From Lama glama (taxonomy: Eukaryota), in assembly GCA_028534125.1 (NCBI GenBank), contig CM052838.1:65596001-65660000 (forward strand): DNA of 64,000 nt. Direction: 5' to 3'. Below, piece by piece: positions 7,931 to 64,000 of this stretch. Under the pieces are notes generated by a model. It saw only the letters and a program-made list of their open reading frames with translations, was not told the origin of the DNA and searched no databases. Numbering within the stretch: the first letter of the stretch is position 1; each line of letters opens with the position of its first letter. Both the position numbers and the translations under genes were made by a program.

Positions 7931-10900
7931 GTAAGACTCCATGCTGTCCTTTGCTGTCTCCTGGGGGTTTCTGTCTTGGGGCCCCCAACACCCTGCCCGC
8001 TGGTCTGGCTTCTCCGGGTCCCCTCCGCCCAGTGCCCCTGCAAGAGGGTGTGTGCTCTGGGTCTGATCGAGTCGTTTGCTGCAGTCACTAAGTGGGGAAT
8101 CATTAGAACCCCTGGCTTTCTGGAGTTTCTGAAACCAAGATGACAGGCCTGCCCTGGACCACCCCCCCAGCCGTCCTGCCCCGTTGCCGTCCGTGCCGCT
8201 CCCGGGACGAGGCGCAGGCGGGGGCTCCGGCTCTCCAGAAGCGGAGCTAGAGGAGAAGGAAATGGCTCTGTATGTTGTATCGGGGCTCCTGTCAAACGGA
8301 AGATAATGAAAAACAGAAACGCGACTGGAGGAGGGCGTGTTTCAGGAAGAGACGGGCCAGGGGTGTGTTTGCAGCAGAGCAGGAAGTGTAGCCTGTGTCT
8401 AATGGGTGACACCACGTGTCTGTGCTGAGAAGACACCCCCCCCAGTCTCCTGACACAGCCCTCGCCTCCGTCCTCTGACTCGGGGGCGTTCAGGCTGTGC
8501 CCCAGGCCTGAGGGGTCCCAGTGCCTGCCTGTCCGGTCTGCGGAGTCTGCGTGTCGACCTTCCGCGTGCCGCTGTCTCTGCGTGTTTCATAGAGTCCTTC
8601 AGAGCCCCCCATGTTGGGCTGTGGAGCCAGGTCACGTTAATCAGAAAGGCCACTGAGGGCGCGAGAACTGGGGGCAGCTACTCGTGTCGGTTTGTTCAGA
8701 CTCGTCCTCACTCACTCACTCACTCGAGACAGATCACTCTCCCCAAGGCTGGGGGCCAGCGTCGTCTCCAGACTGCTTGAGAGGTGATGTCATCCACATT
8801 GAGAGCAGGGTTCTAGCCGGCAGGGGGGCTCTTCACTGCCCTGTTGCCTGGGGGTTCTCTGACGCTCGAGATACAGCCTCTGGCTTCCCGCTGAGGAGCC
8901 TGGGGTGGCCGAGCAGACGGGGCGGGAGCCCGGGCTCGGGTTGCTCTCCCCACCATCTCATGCCGGACCCCCGATGTCTGCAGGTCGTGTTCGCGGGCAG
9001 CAGGCTGGGAGCAGACAGGGACGGTCAAACACAGCAGGCCCAGGTGAAGCTGGAAGCAAAACGGGTTATGTTTCTAATAAACCTGCACCTCCAGCTTAAA
9101 CATCTACCAGATCTGCTGAACTTCTCCCGTTTGCAGGTCACCATTTGCATACGTGTTGTATTGCTAAGTCGGACTAGTCATGAAGTGCCTGGCCAGCCCC
9201 ACAGTTCACTTAAACCTGTGCATTAGGTGCATGTTAGACGCACGGTAGGGGGCAGCAAGCCCCCTCCAGGGCCGGCCCCGCTGTCGCAGGCAGGAGCTGT
9301 GATGCGGTGGTCGGCGGCTGCGCCCTGAGCCCACGAGCCCGGCGGGAGGCTTGCCGGTCTCTGAGCGCCCCGGCGTGCGCAGGGCGGGCGTGGCTGCTGT
9401 CCCACAGCGCCGGCGCCGGCGGGGCCTCGGGCTGCCCTTGCTCTTCTGCCTGGAACTGAGCTACAGCAAGAGCAATCCAGCATTTGTGATGAGTTGGAAT
9501 GAATTTTAAAAAGAGATAGCCTGAATTTTAACACGTTGGTTCCTACCCAGAAATTTAAGAGGAAAAGGGGCGAAAGGGACTTCCGGTTTCTGGTCCAACA
9601 CATGAAGAGCTTGGAAGTTGTCACTCCCATCCTCATGATGAGAAAAAATCCAAACAGGCTGCAAATAGATCCCTTAGACCCCTCAGAGAAGCAAGGTCAC
9701 AGGGCAAACTGATGCCCCCCAAAGCAGAGGAGAATCTGGGCCTCCTGGGAGCGGGGACCACCACAGGGGCCGCTGGTCTGGACACTGAAGGAAGGCTGTG
9801 TGATGCTGGGGGCCGAGTGCAGGCAGCTGGTAGGAGAAGCGCCGGGGCCCAGCCTGAGGGCTGTGCTGTCCTGGGCTTTACCTGCAGGACCTCACCATGT
9901 TCTCATGATGAGTGTGAAGAGAGGTCTCCATGTGCCTCTAGTGAGGGAGGGGAAAGCAGTGTTTTGAAACGTGCCCAGAGCGCTCTGCTCTCCTTGAAAG
10001 GCCTGCCCTCAGGAAAAACCATTTCACCAGAACCCAGAGTGTTGGCATCTGATCAGGGCCTAACCAGGGGGAGGGAGACAGACAGTTCTGGCCTCCTCCA
10101 GCCTTCCTGCTGCACTGGAGATTAGACACAGAGCAGACTGAATCCGCAGTCAGCAGGAGAGAAGAAAGCATGCAAAGCGAGCACAGATGAGTGGGAGTGA
10201 AGACACTCAGTGGAGAGCACTAATGACACCAAAAGCTGGTTCTTTGAAAAGATCAATAAAATTGGTAAGCCATTAGCCGAGCTAACAACAACGAAAAGAG
10301 CACAAATGACCGACATTAGAAATGAGAGAGGGGCTGTCAATACTGATCCTGTGGACACTAAAAGGACAAAAAGGTTTTTAAGAAAAAAACTATTCCTATA
10401 AATTTGATAACTTATATGGACCAACTCCTTGAAAGGAACAGTCTACCAAAACTCACTCAAGGCTTGCTGGAAAATGTGAATAGATCTTTATCTACTGAAA
10501 GAAATTCAACCAATAATTAATAACCTTCTACATAAGAAGGCATCAGGCCAGACGGTTTCACTGGTGATTTCACCAGGCATTTAAGGGCGACGTTATACCA
10601 ATTCTCTGAAGTCTCTTCCAGGAAACAAAAGTAAAGGGAAAACTTCCTGATGCATTCTGTGAGGCCGGCATTGCCCTAATACCAAAACGAGTTGAAGATA
10701 CCACGAAAAGGGAGAACTACAGACCAGTGTTTCTCGTGAACATAAAATGCAAAATCCTCAACATAATGTTAGCAGCTTAAAAGCAACAATGAACAAGAAA
10801 AATTGTACACCAGGGCCAATTCAGATTTATCCTGGCGTACAAGGCTGGTTCAACATTCAGAAATCAATTAATGGAAGCCATCACATCAATGGGCTAAGGA

Positions 10901-13900
10901 AGGAAAATCAAATGATCCTATCAGTAGATGTAGAAAAAGCATTTGATAAAATCCAGCACCCATTTGTAAAAACTTGCGGCAAACTAGGAATAGCAGAGAA
11001 CGTCCTCAACTGGACAGAGAGCATCTTCAGAGACTACGTTAACATCCTACGTAGTGGAGAGGAACTAGACGCTTCTCTGAGTAACAAGGTGAGGATGTCC
11101 ACTCTCGGCATTTGTCTTCAGCCTCATTCAAGAAATCTTGGCTAATGCAGTAAGACAAGAAAAGTATATAATAAACTTACGGTGGGAGTGGCTGCCTTAG
11201 TTCTTAAATAACATGTTCACATAGAAAATCTCAGCTCAGCAGCGACAGCAGCAAGTCTGTCACCAGAAGCAAGTTTTCAGGATCTGACTGAAGACGCACA
11301 TGTCAGAGGCTTTCTTCTGTACCAGCAACGAACAGCTGGAATTTGAAATGAAAAACCCAGTATCATTTGCCGTAGCACACACACAAAAAGAAGTCCTTAG
11401 GGAAAAGTCTAACCAGGTGTGTACAAGATCTACGTGAGGAGAACTACAAAACTCTGATGGGAGGAACCAAAGAAGCCCTGAATAAACGGACAGACGGTCC
11501 ATGTTCATGGGTAGAAAGACTCGGGAATTTGAGGATGTCAGTTCTTTCCAACTACATACTCAGCACAGTGCCAAACTCCCAGCAAGCTGTCTTGTGGGTA
11601 CCGGCAAACTGAGCCTAAAGGTTCTAAGGGAAAGCAGGAGACCCAGAGCAGGCAGAACAGTCCTGAAGGAGAAGAGCAAAGGCGGAGGGCAGACCCCGCC
11701 GTTGTCAGGACTTTCCACAGCGGTCAGGACAGCGTGGTGTCGGTGAAAGGCTGGACAGTAGATCCCCGGCACCGAACAGAGAGCCCAGAAGTGGACGCAC
11801 ACGTCCACACTCGACCGACCTTTGACAGAGGAGCAAAGGGAGCAAAGTGGAGCAAAGACCGTGTTTTTAACAGTTGGTGCTGGAACCTGCTGGACGGTCA
11901 CAGGCCCCCAGATTCAGTCTAGTCGCAGACCTCACACCTTCAGACTCACTCAAAGGGGGTCACAGAGCTGAGCATAAGATGCGAGACTATAAAACTCCTG
12001 GGTGGCGACGTGGGAGAAAACGCAGGTGACCTTGAGCTAGTGACAGCTTTAGATACAGCACCAAATGCATGGTCCTTGGAAGAAAAAGTCAGTAAGTTGG
12101 ACTTCATGAAAACTGAAAACTCATGCTCTGCAGAAGACACCGTTAAGGGAATAAGACAGCCACAGGCCGGAGAACGTGCTCTCGGAGGACACATGAGATG
12201 AAGCGCTGCTGTCCGGAGCACACAGAGAGCTCCCACAGCTCAGCAGCAGGAACAGCCCAACTGGAAAGTGAGCCCAAGGTCTGAACAGGCGTCTCACCCA
12301 GGAAGATATATGGACGGCAACACCAGGCACTCAGCATCGTGTGTCATCCGGGAGCTGCACGTGAAAGCAACAGTGAAAACCACCGCACCCTGTGAGAGTG
12401 GCTTAAGTCAGAGAGACTGACGCCACTGCACCAGCGAGGCTGTGGGGGGGCCGCCCGCGGCCTGCGCTGCACCCACCCGCACCCTGGGGGCCTGCGTCTG
12501 TCCTGAGGACGTCCCCGGGCGCTGCAGTGATGACACGGTCTTTGCCTCGAGGAAGCCCATCCTGAGCAGACCTTCAGAGAGAACATCCTTTATTCTCAGT
12601 GGAACTCAAGCTGGGCCACGGCTGTTAGTGAGGGGGGCTCTAGAAGGTCGGATAAATACTCCCCCTGCAGGCGGGGACCCCCCCAGGTCAGCCCAGGCCA
12701 CACCCCATTAGGTGGCGCCGCCTGCGGTGGTGCTGATGCCTGACCCTGCCCCTTCCAGAGACAAGGGGGCTGGCCAGGAGCAGAGGTGTCCCGTGGAACC
12801 GGGCAGAGGCCAGCCACTGCTGGGGCTGGACCCTCACCCGCACCCCCTGCCCTGTGCAGAGGCCGAGTGGGGGCCCAGGGCCGCCCTCCTGGCTCCAGGC
12901 TGGCTGTCAGCTCCGCCCTGCTCCAGAGCTCCCCTCCACCTCCCCCGAGGTGGCACTGCTTGTCCTCCACCCTCTGGCGGGGGCACGTCCTCTGTCCACA
13001 GGGGCACTCCCCCTTCCTGGAGGCTAGTTCAGCTCCCCCAGCAAGACCCGGCTCAGGCCTCTCTTGGTGGCCACACTCAGGAGCATCCAGGTCCCGTGTC
13101 AATCTGTGTCCCCTCTCCGGGCCCCATGTCTGCTTCCCGTGGCCGTGTCCTCAGGGCTCCCAGGAGGTTGAGGCCATGCCTGCTGTCTGTGTCCCCAGCT
13201 TCTGGCCCCGGCCCCACAACGCTCAGCGGACATCCTGGTGTCGCCCAGTGCAGGAGGAGCCTGGAAGGGCTGTTTGAGCTGGTGAGAAGCGGGGCTGGGG
13301 GCCGGGCAGGTGGGAGCCCACCCTGCAGGCCGGAGCCGCGTGAGGGCTGCTGTGTCACTGGTGGGGCAAGCAGGTGGCGTCTGTGCGGGATGGGCCTGTG
13401 GCCCCCCACCGGAGTGGTCAGCTCCCCACTCAGAGTCTAGGTGGCCTGCCGCCTCGAGGAGGGGAGTTCTGGACGTGCCGCGCCTGTGACAGCGGTGCAC
13501 CTCCCCGTCATGATGCCGCCTGCGGGTGATGCTTGATAAATGTTGTCCTTGTGCGGAGATGGATGGGCGGTTACAGTAAGTGCTCCTGTGATTAAACGCC
13601 GCAGGTGGGGTTATGAATGGGTCACAGCTTGGCGGCGTCCCTTGTTTGTTTACACAAGCCTGTGCCCCCCTCCCCAGGCACCAGCCTCCTGCCTCACGGG
13701 TGCGGGGCTCTCGGGGGACCTGTCGTCCCCGTGGCTCGTCTCCGTGGTTTAGGAGGAGGGTCAGAGGAGCAGTGGGTACAGGGAGACAGCTCTACTTCGT
13801 GTGCTCTGCCCCCTGCCCCCGAGTCACTGAGAAGACCTGCCCTGTCTCATCATTGCTGTTCCACCCACTTCAGTGGCCCATGGGGTGGGCGGTACCCCCA

Positions 13901-19900: not shown

Positions 19901-22900
19901 CAGAGTCAGGGCTGCCCTGTGCAGTGGTTTCTGGTTTCCAAACGTGTACGAGGGCACCAGGGTCACTGCGACCTCTCCCGCTCTCTATCCTCAGGGCTCC
20001 GTGGCCCAGGGTCCAGCGGCTCCCTAGTCAGGCAGCCTGACCCACAGCATCCATCTTCACGGAGCGTCCTGCTGGGCTGTGGGCCGCACCCCTTCCTCCC
20101 ACCTCGCCCCACCCTGCCCCGCGTGAGCACCAGGGGGCAGGATGGTCATGGACCCAGGACAGGGCAGGTACCAGCCCAGTGGTGGACGTGCCCCCTCTGT
20201 CCTCTCGTGAACAACAAGACCAGGTGGGGGTGCTCAGTGACCCTTCTCCCAGGCTCTCCAAGTAAGGTTCTTTTTGGGGGAAGAGGATAAGAAAATGGAG
20301 CAGAAGTAAATGTGGGGTTCCTTTGACCCCCCCTCTGTCTGTAGGGCCCCACGAGGTTCTCTTCGGGCGATGAGACTACAGGCCTGGAGCACCGCTGGGG
20401 GTGGGCCCTGCGGGAAGCGGCCTCCGCGGGGCCGCGTGCAGTCCCGTCCCCGTCAGCACGTGCTGTCACCTGCCAGGCCTGACAGCCTGTCACGTGGCCC
20501 CCACACTGTCCCCAGGGCACCCCGCACGCCCGTCCTGCGGAGCTGCCGCCCCGGCGTCCTTCCCCCCAGCCAGGCTCCCCACGTGCCCGGCTGGCTGCGT
20601 CCCTGGGCCTCTCTCCAGCCTGGGCAGTGGTGGGTAGAGGACGGTGGTGGCCTTGTCCCTCGGCCCCTTCCTGCCTGTGGCTGAGCCGGAGCAGCGAGCC
20701 AGCAGGCGCCCTGCGCGGAGAGAGCGGCTGACCTCATCCGACTGGAAAGCACGGCAGGCGCCCCAACTGCGTGGGAGCCGTGGGGCCTCCTTCTCTGTCG
20801 GCCGCTTACAAGTGTCACCTGTTTATTTTTCAGTGCAAGTGGTCGAGGAAAGGCTTCATCCGGACGAGGTGGTGCGTGGCGGACTGGTACGTCCCCTGTG
20901 GTCCTTGCCTGTGCCCGGCTCCCGGGACGTTCCCCTTTCGGACTGGGCACAAGTGGTGTGTGGCTTGGACATCCGTCAGAGGCTGCTCCACCCTACTCTC
21001 CGCTCTTGACCCTCCTTGTTCTGGCGACTCCATGTGGCACAGAGCACTGTCACCTGGTCCCTGTAACTCCGGTGTTCTGGTGCTCACATCCACCTGCCCC
21101 TGCCCTCCTCCCTGGGAGCCCCCTCGAGAGCCAAGAGCTGGTGCAGGGCTCCCCAGACCCCTCCTTCTGGTCGTCCTACTGCGCTGCGTCCAGCTGCAGG
21201 AAGTGGGGTTCTGTGGGGCATGGAGCACAGGTGAGGCAGGACCCTTGCTGACATGGGGATCCCCGGCATGGCCTTCCTGGGGGGCACCCTCCATGGTGCA
21301 CGCCTGTCTTCTCCCGGGACAGGAACCCTTGAAGACTGCTCCCTGCTGTCCTGACCTGCGTGCAGCACCTGTGGCTGGGCTCTGCTGGTCCCAAGGCCGT
21401 GCTCTGCACAGCGAGGTCCTGGAGTGGCTGGAGTAGGGGTGTTGCCCCCTGCAGGCCCTGGGGAGATGGCCGTCCTGACGCTGGCTGACCGCAGCTGGGC
21501 CCTCAGCTGCCCCTGCTATGTATGTCCACACAGGCCCCTCACTGGGGCCTCGAGGGTTGGGGTGTTCCCTGGAACGGGGATCCTAGAGCATGAGAGAGCA
21601 GGAGGGAGCTCGAGCCAGCTGCAGCCTCCAGGACCCGACCGCCCGCTTGAGCCTGTGTGGTCAGTCCCGCAGGCCCAGGCGCGGCATGGGAGGGCACAGG
21701 GGGCTGCTGCCAGCTCTGCAGATGTGTCCCGCTGGGTCTCGGGCCCAGTGGTCCCAACTCTGCGGGTGGCATGGGGCGCCCCCAAGGCACCACTCACTGT
21801 GTGGCAGACATGCCCCAGCGATGCCCAGGGGCCCTGGGGTGTGGAGAGGCTGACTGGGCTGAATCCGGCCTCACCATCTCCCTGAGAAGCCAGGCCAGCA
21901 GTGCCCTGCTGTTTCCCCAAGGGTCTTCCAGGTTCTGTGAGCTAGGGGCTTCTTCTTGGGAGTGAAATGAATCACTCAGTGCCCCCATGTCACGGGGTCC
22001 GCCTACAGTGAGCGCTGCTGGACAGGGGTGGCTCCAGGCTGCACCAGCAGCCACCCAGGAGGGAGCCAAGGCCTGGGGAGGTGACTCCCCCATCCCCCCA
22101 CCCCCATGTTAGCCCACAGCTCGAAGGAAGTTTCTGGGGTCGTGTGTAAGTTCTTTGCTTTAGAGAAACAGTTCCCTTGCCATCCAGTGAGCTGCTGTGT
22201 TTGTAACACTGAGAGCCTGCGTGCAGGGTCTCGTGTGTCCTCCTCTGACCAGAGGAGGACATGCCCTGGGCAGCCTGGCGCGGCTGAGGGGGACGGGCAT
22301 GCGGGGTGCCCTTGGGAGCCAGGGGGACAGCGTGGGGGCCTCCCTGGGTGACCCAGCGGCGCCAGCCCCTCTGAGCCCCTCGCCATGAGCCCTCCCTCTG
22401 TCCCTGCAGTGCCTTTGACTTGGTGAACATCCACCTTTTCCACGATGCGTCCAATCTGGTGGCCTGGGAGACGAGCCCCTCGGTGTACTCGGGCATCCGG
22501 CGCAAGGCCCTGGGCTACGTGCTGGACAGGTAGGTGCCCGCCCGCCTCCGGGAGGACTGACACTCGTTCTTCAAAGCCACTTCTCCTAGTTTGCCTTTTC
22601 CTGTTTACCAAAAGTACGAAACTTGCAAAGGTCAAGCCCACGGGGGATGCACAAACGCTGACCCCGCCCCAGGCTCATGAGGCCCCACCCAGACACGCTG
22701 AAGGCTGGGTGGCCTCACCTGCTTTTCCGTTTCGGGGGAAGAGGGACCGAGGCAGATGAAGCTCAGCTGCAGCACCTCCTCTGGCCTCAGCTCAGAGACC
22801 GGAGCTCCTGGGGTCTCCCCAGGCTCTGCGCCTCGGAGCAGCGGCTGTGTGGGGTCTGCTCCGCGAGGCTCCTGCTGCCAGCCCGGGTGAGCACGGCCTC

Positions 22901-62800: not shown

Positions 62801-63194
62801 CTGGGTCACTGGCAGGCAAAGGCGATGCACTGGTTCCCCATCTTCAAGACCTCTGGGCCCCACCCACACTGCCCCATCCCAGGAGGAGCTCTGTCTTTCC
62901 GGGGCTATTTGGCCGGAATCAGCAGTTCTTAAATGAGCTTTTACATTAGTTTTCCCTCTGGGAATAATGCCCTCTCTACAGACCACGAAGGCCCTCTGCC
63001 TCGAGCCTCTGGCTGCCCAGTCCGGGCAGCTCCACACGGGCGGGGTCCAGAATGGGTACCCAGCCGGGAGCGTGGGGTCCGGGGTTCTGACGACTTCTCT
63101 TCTGCCCCTGCAGCCCGTGTTCCTGGCCTTCCGCATCGCGCCCGGGGCAGGTAAACCTCACGCACGTGTGCACAAGTGCTGTGTCGTGCAGTGA
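7867..63194 (+). CDS. INPP5A: Inositol polyphosphate 5-phosphatase A (43-kDa type I IP3 5-phosphatase); 5'-partial spliced CDS, 11 exons, C-terminal 310 aa
   Basis: Exons join in frame (64+104+53+120+85+96+75+74+112+69+81 = 933 nt) with GT-AG boundaries. The translation contains 5-phosphatase motifs VFGDFNFRL, RCPAWCDRV and MGDHKPV and ends KCCVVQ* (CAAX), matching mammalian INPP5A as recalled. Confidence 0.98.
9577..12445 (+). mobile_element. Old LINE-1 (L1M-type) relic: 5'UTR-like segment plus disrupted ORF2 (RT region)
   Basis: A-rich + strand. ORF2-like peptides TKSWFFEKINKIGKPL, ENYRPVFLVNI, GVQGWFNIQKSIN, SVDVEKAFDKIQHPF, KDRVFNSWCW and KLDFMKTENSCSAEDTVK occur in shifting frames with stops. 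9577-~10120 resembles an L1M 5' end. Ends approximate. Confidence 0.92.
14700..14762. repeat. Two-copy tandem duplication, 30-31 bp unit (ggaccccaggtggcctcagc(t)ggctgaaggg)
   Basis: Read directly; lies about 40 nt upstream of the exon 6 acceptor. Confidence 0.9.
14803..14906 (+). CDS. INPP5A: INPP5A coding exon (exon 6): (A)KKYKKVTGKEIYSDTLESTPMLEKEKFPQDYFPE
   Basis: Acceptor cttttctag|CT, donor GAG|gtgcgt; 104 nt; peptide visible within track ORF 14511..14984. Confidence 0.97.
17960..18520. promoter_or_regulatory. Candidate conserved non-coding element / enhancer
   Basis: AT-rich island with TAATTA, TAATCC, AATTAATT and CACTTAA motifs; function inferred only. Confidence 0.55.
20834..20886 (+). 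CDS. INPP5A: INPP5A coding exon (exon 7): CKWSRKGFIRTRWCVAD(C)
   Basis: Acceptor tttatttttcag|TGC, donor CTG|gtacgt; 53 nt. Confidence 0.96.
22410..22529 (+). CDS. INPP5A: INPP5A coding exon (exon 8): AFDLVNIHLFHDASNLVAWETSPSVYSGIRRKALGYVLD(R)
   Basis: Acceptor ctgtccctgcag|T, donor CAG|gtaggt; 120 nt; contains the NxHL motif typical of 5-phosphatases. Confidence 0.97.
29162..29361 (+). mobile_element. MER8 / Tigger2-derived non-autonomous DNA transposon (TcMar-Tigger)
   Basis: Internal gttggttgaatctgcagacgcagaaccgcggat and 3' end ggcgcccctcaccccgtctcgtccaagggccagctg followed by TA match the recalled MER8 consensus; left TIR eroded. Confidence 0.7.
29690..30130 (+). mobile_element. Highly diverged L1 (L1ME-like) ORF2 3' fragment
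   Basis: Collinear pieces aacagagtctcagaaagacc, gggaaaatccataaactcagatccctgcttcac, aattccagatagattaaag and gcacagagcgggaagag resemble L1 ORF2 C-terminal sequence. Confidence 0.55.
30379..30495 (+). mobile_element. tRNA(Ala)-derived SINE, camelid vic-1 type, with 16-bp target-site duplication
   Basis: ggggggaggatatagctcaagtgg (A box) ... ggtttgatcccc (B box), then aaaaataaataaatag and a C-rich end; exact flanking repeat catattgccctgtcat at 30363-30378 and 30496-30511. Confidence 0.9.
31509..31593 (+). CDS. INPP5A: INPP5A coding exon (exon 9): ISDQRFEKASYFVFGDFNFRLDSKSVVE
   Basis: Acceptor ctctcctccag|G, donor GAG|gtaggc; 85 nt; catalytic motif GDFNFR. Confidence 0.97.
32258..32463. repeat. 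G-rich minisatellite, 30-33 bp unit, about 6.5 copies
   Basis: Unit gcg(tg)gggggctctgaccagaggggcccctgt; gctctgacca occurs 7 times. Confidence 0.97.
35045..35455 (-). mobile_element. MaLR solo LTR (MLT1C/D-like)
   Basis: Ordered blocks cacagtctggaggc, ggggaggctccttcctg, tcttacaagtcaccag, agggccccc, taattacacctgcagagacc and aagtaaggtcac match the reverse complement of the recalled MLT1 consensus; ends approximate. Confidence 0.8.
37545..37680. promoter_or_regulatory. Candidate compact homeodomain-site enhancer
   Basis: TAATTAA twice plus TAATGG and GATTA within about 80 bp; function inferred only. Confidence 0.5.
47366..47461 (+). CDS. INPP5A: INPP5A coding exon (exon 10): TLCTKATMQTVRAADTNEVVKLIFRESDNDRK
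   Basis: Acceptor gtccttcccag|ACC, donor AAG|gtgagc; 96 nt, phase 0/0. Confidence 0.97.
47550..47624 (+). CDS. INPP5A: INPP5A coding exon (exon 11): VTLQLEKKLFDYVNQEVFRDNNGTA
   Basis: Acceptor cccggcag|GTG (weak pyrimidine tract, see findings), donor GCG|gtgagt; 75 nt. Confidence 0.95.
49576..49755. other. Assembly gap (180 N)
   Basis: Run of N in the sequence. Confidence 1.
49756..50130. promoter_or_regulatory. Candidate conserved non-coding element / enhancer
   Basis: AT-rich non-repetitive island with TTATCA (GATA-like), CATTGT (SOX-like) and TAATC motifs, abutting a gap. Confidence 0.45.
50850..50879. repeat. (GT)15 microsatellite
   Basis: Read directly. Confidence 0.97.
52340..52526. 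repeat. Minisatellite, 60-61 bp unit, 3 copies
   Basis: Unit gcagcccctgaagtggacgcctccgtggacggcctgggggccgcacagacccagccgggca; copies 2 and 3 are identical and copy 1 has a few changes. Confidence 0.97.
54476..54549 (+). CDS. INPP5A: INPP5A coding exon (exon 12): LLEFDKELSVFKDRLCELDISFPP(S)
   Basis: Acceptor ttttttcctttag|CTC, donor CAG|gtgagg; 74 nt. Confidence 0.97.
57719..57818. other. Assembly gap (100 N, conventional unknown-size gap)
   Basis: Run of N in the sequence. Confidence 1.
59775..59886 (+). CDS. INPP5A: INPP5A coding exon (exon 13): YPYSEDSSQGKQYMNTRCPAWCDRVLMSPSAKELILR
   Basis: Acceptor gtctccccag|C, donor AGG|gtgagt; 112 nt; second catalytic motif PAWCDR. Confidence 0.97.
62326..62394 (+). 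CDS. INPP5A: INPP5A coding exon (exon 14): SESEEKVVTYDHIGPSVCMGDHK
   Basis: Acceptor gcttttctcag|TCG, donor AAG|gtgaca; 69 nt. Confidence 0.97.
63114..63194 (+). CDS. INPP5A: INPP5A last coding exon (exon 15): PVFLAFRIAPGAGKPHARVHKCCVVQ*; exon extends to 63201
   Basis: Acceptor ctgcccctgcag|CCC; TGA at 63192-63194; C-terminal CAAX CVVQ; donor-like GTG|gtaaat at 63201/63202. Confidence 0.97.
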   Translation, partial: PVFLAFRIAPGAGKPHARVHKCCVVQ

Positions 63195-63201
63195 CGTGGT
63201 G

Positions 63202-63288
63202 GTAAATATTCCTCCTTCCCTCGTGTTCACCTTTCCTGAGTTTCTCCTGGTGTGTGCGCGCCTTTAACCAACGGCCGACTCCACGCAG
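63202..63288 (+). other. INPP5A: 87-nt intron in the INPP5A 3' UTR
   Basis: gtaaat donor, branch-point-like ctttaac at 63262-63268, acceptor ccacgcag at 63281-63288; agrees with the recalled short last intron of mammalian INPP5A. Confidence 0.8.
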
Positions 63289-64000
63289 GGACGCGGTGTC
63301 AGCGCCACGAGAGGACCCTTGGCGAGCCCTCCCTGTAGCACAAGGCGCAGACGAAGTCGCAGCCCATGAAATACGTACTCGTGATAGCTGCACCCACAAC
63401 CGCCCGAGCGCCACCCGCTAGGCAGATGGCCAGCCCTGCACTTCGCTTCAGCCTCCGGACGGCGGCTCCGGAAAAGCCTCACATACCTCACTGTCTCGTC
63501 TGTTCATGTGACATTAAGTAGAAATACTGGGTTTTTAAAAAAAAAAAAAAAGTCACAGCCCTGTTGCCAAAACTCTGTAATAGACAGCAAAGAGATTCTG
63601 TATTTTAGACTTCACGGTTTTCGATTTTTACGAATTGTCAGCGTGGAAGAGCTTCTCCAGGGTGGAAACCCCACAGGTGCCGAGCCCTCTGCCAGCCGGG
63701 CGCCCGGTGGGGGGCAGGCGGGCTCTGGACCGCCGGGCTGTGCGCGGCCTCTGCTGGGGGTCGTGGCCCGGCTCCCACTCCGATGGCCCCCCTTCCGTGC
63801 TCTTCACTCTACTGCCATGTGACATGGCTTTTGAATCACACTGCAGCTGCTTTCCATTTTTATATATAAATATATATAAATATATACTTTTTAAAAATAA
63901 TTTATAAACCTTACCAAAACTTACGCTAAATATACTTTCCAGTATGAATGCTTGAGTGGTATTTCAGCAGGTAGCATCGAGGTCTAGGAGATCAGGCACG
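63289..64000 (+). other. INPP5A: INPP5A terminal exon / 3' UTR (3'-partial)
   Basis: Follows the last acceptor; contains an A15 run (63537-63551) and an AT-rich block (about 63856-63950). No canonical AATAAA was seen, so the UTR probably continues beyond the window. Confidence 0.8.

What the first reader, a model, noticed from the sequence alone, without database searches (positions are those of the whole stretch)
63141..63338. Built-in splice switch: CAAX (membrane-anchored) versus non-prenylated INPP5A C-terminus
Seen: the last coding exon has two donors exactly 51 nt apart, CAG|gtaaac (63150/63151, inside the CDS) and GTG|gtaaat (63201/63202, after the stop). Both can use the acceptor at 63288. 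The downstream donor gives ...PGAGKPHARVHKCCVVQ*. The upstream donor removes the CAAX and the stop and reads into the UTR exon as ...PGAGTRCQRHERTLGEPSL* (TAG 63336-63338). Established: INPP5A membrane targeting depends on farnesylation of its C-terminal CAAX, and all catalytic motifs lie upstream. Inference: donor choice toggles a membrane-bound versus soluble IP3 phosphatase and so the spatial reach of Ca2+ signals. Both products should escape NMD. I recall similar alternative C-termini being annotated in other mammals, so the event may be known although little studied.
Basis: partly seen in the sequence, partly recalled or inferred. Interest (0 to 1): 0.7.

Follow-up and report, generated by a model that had tools for sequence, protein, structure and literature searches.

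The report
Ancient splice switch removes INPP5A anchor
The gene for INPP5A, an enzyme that shuts off calcium signals, has a second splice site, identical in a fish, that would swap its membrane lipid tag for a conserved 16-residue tail and likely makes a minor unanchored enzyme whose role appears untested.

Summary
A teleost locus has the same two donor 11-mers letter for letter, the same 51-nt spacing and the same tail frame. Tail differences fall mostly on third codon positions. The tail ends 96 database INPP5A proteins from fish, amphibians, reptiles, birds and mammals; macaque matches this window at 14 of 16 residues. The isoform is annotated: mouse isoform B gives a band 51 bp shorter, but that band was absent from mouse cerebellum and cortex. 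Use of the junction in this species is untested, and 0 of 14 camelid records carry the tail. Loss of the lipid anchor likely gives a soluble or nucleoplasmic, weaker IP3 phosphatase (published C409S mutant). All 12 distinct amphibian and sauropsid tails end like a class I PDZ ligand; this window's tail does not, and mammalian tails are eroding. Ten literature searches showed no functional study. This scan reported the same switch before, in a chimaera genome (e1-9525713). Verdict: real, ancient, annotated, function open.

The parts
22410..22529 (+). Upstream INPP5A coding exon used to identify the gene (HLFHD motif)
   Evidence: 100% identical to camelid INPP5A over 40 aa
59775..59886 (+). INPP5A coding exon with the PAWCDR catalytic motif, shared by both isoforms
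   Evidence: region aligns to SHIP2 and OCRL catalytic domains
63114..63201 (+). Last coding exon in its long form (88 nt); the short form ends at 63150 (37 nt)
   Evidence: same layout in teleost locus L006
63148..63158 (+). Upstream (distal) donor D1, CAG|GTAAACCT, inside Ala-Gly-Lys-Pro codons
   Evidence: identical 11-mer in L006
63177..63194 (+). Cys-Cys-Val-Val-Gln-stop: palmitoylation site plus CAAX box, removed when D1 is used
   Evidence: C408 and C409 lipidation from PMC12450637 section 6
63199..63209 (+). Downstream (proximal) donor D2, GTG|GTAAATAT, 7 nt after the stop
   Evidence: identical 11-mer in L006
63202..63288 (+). Last intron, 87 nt from D2 and 138 nt from D1; shared acceptor CAG at 63286-63288
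   Evidence: 339 and 390 nt in L006
63289..63338 (+). Dual-use start of the last exon: 3'UTR in the D2 mRNA, coding tail (TRCQRHERTLGEPSL, stop) in the D1 mRNA
63339..64000 (+). Shared 3'UTR, continuing past the window; no AATAAA inside, first AATAAA 722 nt beyond the window end
   Evidence: no similarity to the fish UTR

Best explanation
Two donors 51 nt apart share one acceptor, an arrangement also present in a teleost, and the upstream donor likely yields a minor INPP5A isoform whose lipid anchor is replaced by a 16-residue tail, predicted to be soluble or nucleoplasmic. Shown: the sites, their spacing and the tail frame; the tail's presence in annotated proteins across bony vertebrates; a codon-position signature of protein-level selection between fish and this species. 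Inferred: the proximal donor D2 is the default and gives the palmitoylated, farnesylated 412-aa enzyme. D1 is used in a minority of transcripts and gives a catalytically intact enzyme of about 414 aa, without Cys408 and Cys409. That enzyme would leave the membranes near IP3 receptors and act on the diffusible or nuclear IP3 pool as a weaker brake on Ca2+ oscillations. Constraint on the tail looks strong in fish, amphibians and sauropsids and relaxed in mammals.
For: Locus L006 (teleost by its encoded C-terminus) has both 11-mers identical, spacing 51, the acceptor and the tail in frame. Tail differences by codon position are 7/5/13 over 16 codons (Fisher p=0.005); 4 of 6 shared residues and the stop use different codons; similarity ends at the stop. 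Of 428 proteins collected, 96 carry the tail (51 distinct; 81 of 96 exactly 16 aa), 186 end in the CAAX, 130 lack this exon's motif and 16 are other. Three tail-bearing proteins come only from Logan contigs of 1.8-3.4 kb holding 413-415-aa ORFs (P0259, P0263, P0266), which implies spliced RNA. Bullfrog has both forms in assembled data, 100 vs 18 contigs. Mouse isoforms differ by 272 vs 221 bp. C409S INPP5A leaves membranes, gathers in the nucleoplasm and damps oscillations only at the lowest agonist dose. The Pfam domain ends at 390 in both forms.
Against: No 221-bp band in mouse cerebellum or prefrontal cortex. 0 of 14 camelid records seen carry the tail (only part of each cluster is listed). 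0 of 28 mammalian tail records list Logan as a source. Only 10 of 22 distinct mammalian tails keep the 16-aa length, against 28 of 29 non-mammalian ones; mean identity is 0.58 against 0.76-0.83 (relatives are not independent, the 7 whale tails are one event). This window has Thr at tail position 2, seen in 0 of 50 distinct database tails. The selection test rests on one pair of sequences; the permutation tests are weaker (p=0.035 and 0.066) and cannot place the selection on the mammalian branch. Conservation of wobble bases at D1 is not significant alone (4/4 vs 10/16, p=0.21).
Confidence: 0.7

Rival explanations
1. Relic in this lineage: the switch works in fish, amphibians and sauropsids, but in camelids and many mammals D1 survives mainly through the Gly-Lys-Pro codons, is rarely used, and its product does nothing.
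For: Stop lost in whales, pig, goat and cricetid rodents; 10 of 22 distinct mammalian tails keep the length. No band in mouse brain. 0 of 14 camelid records. Unique Thr at position 2 in this window.
Against: The window tail matches macaque at 14 of 16 and bats at 13 of 16 residues with the stop in place. D1 keeps all 11 bases of the fish site. Mammals of many orders have the form annotated.
Confidence: 0.22
2. Anchor exchange rather than release: the tail re-tethers the enzyme, through a C-terminal PDZ ligand or palmitoylation of its conserved Cys, to a scaffold or membrane other than the one the CAAX form uses.
For: 12 of 12 distinct amphibian and sauropsid tails end [ST]-x-L (the class I consensus is recalled). 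Shifted-frame sturgeon and rattlesnake records are compatible with ETTL and ESSL ends. Cys at tail position 4 in 45 of 50 distinct tails, next to basic residues.
Against: This window ends EPSL. The motif is met in 0 of 17 other non-mammalian tails (16 teleost, 1 lungfish) and in 3 of 22 mammalian tails. In the CAAX form palmitoylation needs prior farnesylation. No partner is known.
Confidence: 0.15
3. The tail region is conserved as an RNA element, such as a splicing enhancer for a weak acceptor, and the peptide is incidental.
For: The window's acceptor has a poor pyrimidine tract. Several tail positions tolerate radical changes.
Against: Nucleotide identity to fish is only 23 of 48, differences concentrate at third positions, the stop codon differs (TGA vs TAG) but keeps its place, and the other two frames share only 2 of 15 residues.
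Confidence: 0.06
4. The tail is reached by stop-codon readthrough: 51 is a multiple of three, so in the D2 mRNA the tail lies in frame behind the CAAX stop.
For: In frame in the window, in L006 and by mouse band sizes. The stop is TGA followed by C in this window.
Against: The known strong context TGA-CTAG (recalled) is absent, and fish has TGA-T. Tail-bearing database proteins join directly at D1. A leopard record suggests 50-nt spacing in cats (weak, decoded by eye). The 2 papers listed for INPP5A plus readthrough mention each term once and were not read.
Confidence: 0.04

Closest known systems
Mouse Inpp5a isoforms A (412 aa) and B (422 aa), PMC7046734 (passages and supplementary file 1 text read; figure not seen)
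   Same: C-termini differ; common primers give 272 vs 221 bp, the same 51 nt. The reverse primer, read by eye as reverse complement, matches the Ser-rich end of the cricetid tail P0100.
   Different: The rodent tail is 24 aa (stop lost) against 16 here. In what I read, the paper does not link B to loss of the CAAX; it found no B in cerebellum or cortex and did not study it.
RefSeq and UniRef INPP5A isoforms of 414-415 aa in birds, lizards, turtles, frogs and teleosts, and macaque isoform X6
   Same: Same junction residue, tail length and core pattern (C4, E8, E13, L16).
   Different: Automated annotations without function. This window has T at position 2 and P at -2; no camelid record with the tail was seen.
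Splice-controlled CAAX switches: OAS1 p46 vs p42 (PMC8357416, abstract and outline; PMC6950736, listing only) and ZAP long isoform (passage in PMC13524398)
   Same: Isoform choice adds or removes a prenylation box and so changes where an enzyme acts.
   Different: OAS1 depends on a splice-site SNP; here two donors compete in one exon, the lipid form is the default, and the alternative tail is itself conserved from fish to mammals. Lamin A/C, GBP5 and H-Ras p19 are further recalled parallels, not checked.
INPP5A C409S and C408S/C409S mutants, PMC12450637 (passages, sections 6 and 9 read)
   Same: No farnesyl and no palmitate; the best proxy for the D1 product.
   Different: Engineered mutants keep the rest of the CAAX tail; the natural isoform carries a new tail with its own Cys and basic residues.

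Membership tests
INPP5A (type I inositol polyphosphate 5-phosphatase) | Sequence orthology to annotated INPP5A | tested here: met
   40 of 40 residues identical to camelid INPP5A; last exon identical to the camel C-terminus
INPP5A (type I inositol polyphosphate 5-phosphatase) | 5-phosphatase motifs (GDFNFR, PAWCDR, DHK) and domain intact upstream of the swap | tested here: met
   PF22669 match 161-390 in CAAX and tail forms; swap at residue 399-400
INPP5A (type I inositol polyphosphate 5-phosphatase) | IP3 5-phosphatase activity of the tail isoform | not testable with these tools
   no assay found; inferred from the C409S mutant's residual effect
Alternative 5' splice site event | Two GT donors and one shared acceptor, conserved across species | tested here: met
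Alternative 5' splice site event | Both junctions present in transcripts of some vertebrate | tested here: met
   Logan-only full-length proteins of both forms (P0259 tail, P0295 CAAX); bullfrog X1 and X2 with Logan source. Indirect: protein calls on contigs, not reads
Alternative 5' splice site event | Both junctions in RNA of this species | not tested
   no reads were laid; 0 of 14 camelid records seen carry the tail
Splice-controlled prenylation switch (OAS1/ZAP type) | One isoform ends in a CAAX box, the other does not | tested here: met
Splice-controlled prenylation switch (OAS1/ZAP type) | The isoforms differ in localisation and the ratio is regulated | not testable with these tools
   only the mutant proxy; mouse brain shows one form
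Class I PDZ-binding motif (x-[ST]-x-[LVI]-COOH, recalled) | Ser or Thr at -2 and a hydrophobic last residue, in this window's tail | tested here: not met
   EPSL has Pro at -2; met in 12 of 12 amphibian and sauropsid tails, 3 of 22 mammalian, 0 of 17 others
Programmed stop-codon readthrough | In-frame conserved extension behind the stop | tested here: met
Programmed stop-codon readthrough | TGA-CTAG-type context (recalled) | tested here: not met
   TGA-CGTG in the window, TGA-TGTC in L006

The most novel reading that the evidence does not exclude
Bony vertebrates have kept, for over 400 million years, a second INPP5A protein with its own selected tail that retargets IP3 breakdown away from membranes, to the nucleoplasm or, in amphibians, reptiles and birds, to a PDZ scaffold. 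Regulated donor choice would then set which IP3/Ca2+ pool is silenced, and mammals are losing the PDZ ligand lineage by lineage.
Probability: 0.3. Interest if true: 0.72.

Novelty: new member of a known kind. Interest (0 to 1): 0.45.

Why it matters
INPP5A ends IP3 signals in Purkinje cells and is required by GNAQ/11-driven uveal melanoma cells, where its farnesylation is proposed as a drug target. A natural unlipidated isoform would be a second pool of the enzyme, with another location, that farnesyltransferase inhibitors would not displace. The papers I read treat only the CAAX form. The conserved tail sits in sequence usually labelled 3'UTR, so variants there could be coding. The claim is cheap to test with junction counts and two tagged constructs.

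Tried and rejected
Sequencing runs: 24 listed, no RNA holder listed. No reads were laid, so junction use in this species stays open. Structure prediction of the 414-aa bird isoform on a 10-sequence alignment: mean pLDDT 29, discarded. Solved structures: no INPP5A entry, only SHIP2 and OCRL at E about 1e-5 to 1e-3. Metagenome pattern scan: 1 of 8 loci was INPP5A, 7 were chance matches. Search for short transcript-derived mammalian fragments with the tail: 10 hits; the 2 from Logan or ENA ended in the CAAX. U1 pairing energies: D1 -8.3 vs D2 -5.3 kcal/mol, a crude measure; three comparison donors were mis-indexed by one base and were dropped. My first tally missed 4 felid and squirrel records, corrected. 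My early guess that the SCA17 rescue virus encoded the non-CAAX form was dropped: the primer sits at isoform B's stop, which is 3'UTR in isoform A, so an isoform A template keeps the CAAX stop. Literature searches showed no study of the tail isoform. Most hits were seen only as listings. The library lacks most subscription papers, including the 1990s cloning and farnesylation papers, and supplementary splicing tables were not searched except those of PMC7046734.

Full report
Observation. The coordinates are exact. The last coding exon starts at 63114. Donor D1 (CAG|GTAAAC) cuts at 63150/63151, inside a Gly codon. The CAAX stop is at 63192-63194, donor D2 (GTG|GTAAAT) cuts at 63201/63202, and the acceptor AG is at 63287-63288. 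D2 gives the C-terminus KPHARVHKCCVVQ. D1 drops those 13 residues and reads the start of the last exon, where 63291-63335 encodes TRCQRHERTLGEPSL before TAG. The gene is INPP5A: motif-bearing exons lie upstream, and one is 100% identical to camelid INPP5A. CAGGTAA occurs twice on this strand of the window.

Conservation at DNA level. A pattern scan of metagenome contigs gave 8 loci; one, L006, is an INPP5A locus, teleost by its encoded C-terminus. It holds D1 at 91, D2 at 142 (spacing 51), an acceptor at 480 and a tail KCCQRGENIFREAPL in the same frame. Both donor 11-mers equal those of the window. Over the 16 tail codons the differences fall 7/5/13 on positions 1/2/3 (Fisher p=0.005). Six of 15 residues are shared, four through different codons. 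The stop differs (TGA vs TAG) but keeps its place. The other frames share 2 of 15 residues, and intron and UTR show no similarity. Column-shuffling tests are weaker (p=0.035 and 0.066), and this is one pair. The fish-mammal split of roughly 430 million years is recalled.

Conservation at protein level. Three searches and two cluster look-ups gave 428 proteins: 186 end in the CAAX, 96 carry the tail, 130 lack this exon's motif and 16 are other. The sample is biased toward the tail, because two queries contained it. Tails occur in teleosts, lungfish, frogs, a salamander, a turtle, lizards, a python, birds and mammals. 81 of 96 are exactly 16 aa. C4, E8, E13 and L16 dominate. The closest to the window are macaque (14/16) and bats (13/16). 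Most records are automated annotations, which as I recall need RNA support for a junction. Independent of annotation, P0259, P0263 and P0266 come only from Logan contigs of 1.8-3.4 kb that hold whole ORFs, so from spliced RNA by inference. Contig counts suggest a minority form: bullfrog 18 vs 100, and two Logan-only fish proteins 2 vs 10. These counts are not expression levels.

Results against. The short band was absent from mouse cerebellum and prefrontal cortex (PMC7046734, supplementary file 1 text). No camelid record seen has the tail (0 of 14; clusters are only partly listed). No mammalian tail record lists Logan (0 of 28). Mammalian tails are looser: 10 of 22 distinct ones keep the length, against 28 of 29 elsewhere, and mean identity is 0.58 against 0.76-0.83. 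The stop was lost in whales, pig, goat and cricetid rodents. The window's Thr at position 2 is in none of 50 distinct tails. No reads were laid on this window, so use of D1 in this species is open.

Mechanism. Shown in print: Cys409 is farnesylated, Cys408 is palmitoylated in a farnesyl-dependent way, and the C409S mutant leaves membranes, gathers in the nucleoplasm and damps Ca2+ oscillations only at the lowest agonist dose (PMC12450637 sections 6 and 9). D1 removes both cysteines. The Pfam domain ends at residue 390 in both forms and the swap begins at 399-400, so activity is likely kept. Both mRNAs should escape NMD under the 50-55-nt rule (recalled), if no further intron follows; the first AATAAA lies 722 nt past the window. 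D1 pairs better with U1 than D2 in a crude duplex calculation, yet D2 seems dominant. The usual preference for the donor nearest the acceptor, tuned by SR proteins and hnRNP A1 (recalled), would explain this and give a handle for regulation. I commit to a minor, unlipidated, soluble or nucleoplasmic isoform (0.7).

A twist. A tail that only deleted the anchor would not need conserved residues. All 12 distinct amphibian and sauropsid tails end [ST]-x-L, the class I PDZ-ligand consensus (recalled). Shifted-frame sturgeon and rattlesnake records are compatible with such ends. The motif is absent from 16 teleost tails and lungfish, from 19 of 22 mammalian tails and from this window. Re-anchoring is therefore a lead for those clades, not a property of this gene. 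Because 51 is a multiple of three, readthrough of the CAAX stop would reach the same tail, but the context is not the known strong one.

Comparison and novelty. The isoform is known as an annotation: mouse isoform B, 422 aa, 51 bp shorter amplicon. It works like the splice-controlled CAAX switches of OAS1 (abstract) and ZAP (passage); regulated use and distinct localisation are untested. Ten searches showed no paper on the tail's function or deep conservation, within the library's limits. The scan itself reported the same switch in a chimaera genome (e1-9525713). That note is unchecked; I found it after the conservation work, and I did not test its shark claim.

Verdict. Real, ancient and under protein-level selection somewhere on the fish-mammal path; annotated but functionally unstudied; probably minor, and possibly decaying, in this lineage. 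New member of a known kind, interest 0.45.

Noticed in passing
window 63166 and 63168: Two further GT sites in the same exon match the breakpoints of database proteins: orangutan 'isoform 7' (P0422) joins after KPHAH into another frame of the last exon, and a gray whale model (P0423) joins after KPHA into the tail frame. Possibly a third minor donor, or gene-model artefacts.
   Followed up: no
window 63151-63191 (equivalent position): Sturgeon, rattlesnake, cusk-eel and bowfin records (P0108, P0395, P0340, P0377, P0388) read the D2 mRNA in a shifted frame, as if about 41 nt from D1 to the CAG before the stop were removed; likely mis-models. Decoding them suggests 48-nt donor spacing in sturgeon.
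   Followed up: partly
window 63177-63201 (equivalent position): Leopard record P0195 runs from KCCV through a shifted frame into the tail without a stop; it suggests an indel in that assembly and perhaps 50-nt spacing in cats.
   Followed up: no
window 10001-12000: A+T-richer, A-skewed stretch (GC 0.455) with a short ORF at 10610-10777 that resembles LINE-1 ORF2 (resemblance recalled).
   Followed up: no
window 63840-63950: A+T-rich block with TATA repeats in the 3'UTR, without AATAAA; the first AATAAA is 722 nt past the window end. Possibly a weak proximal poly(A) site or a protein-binding element.
   Followed up: partly
L006 531-630: A CA-repeat follows the tail stop directly in the fish, so conservation ends sharply at the stop codon.
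   Followed up: partly
protein clusters: PWWP2B proteins (P0166, P0169, P0372) are listed inside INPP5A clusters; probably a clustering artefact.
   Followed up: no
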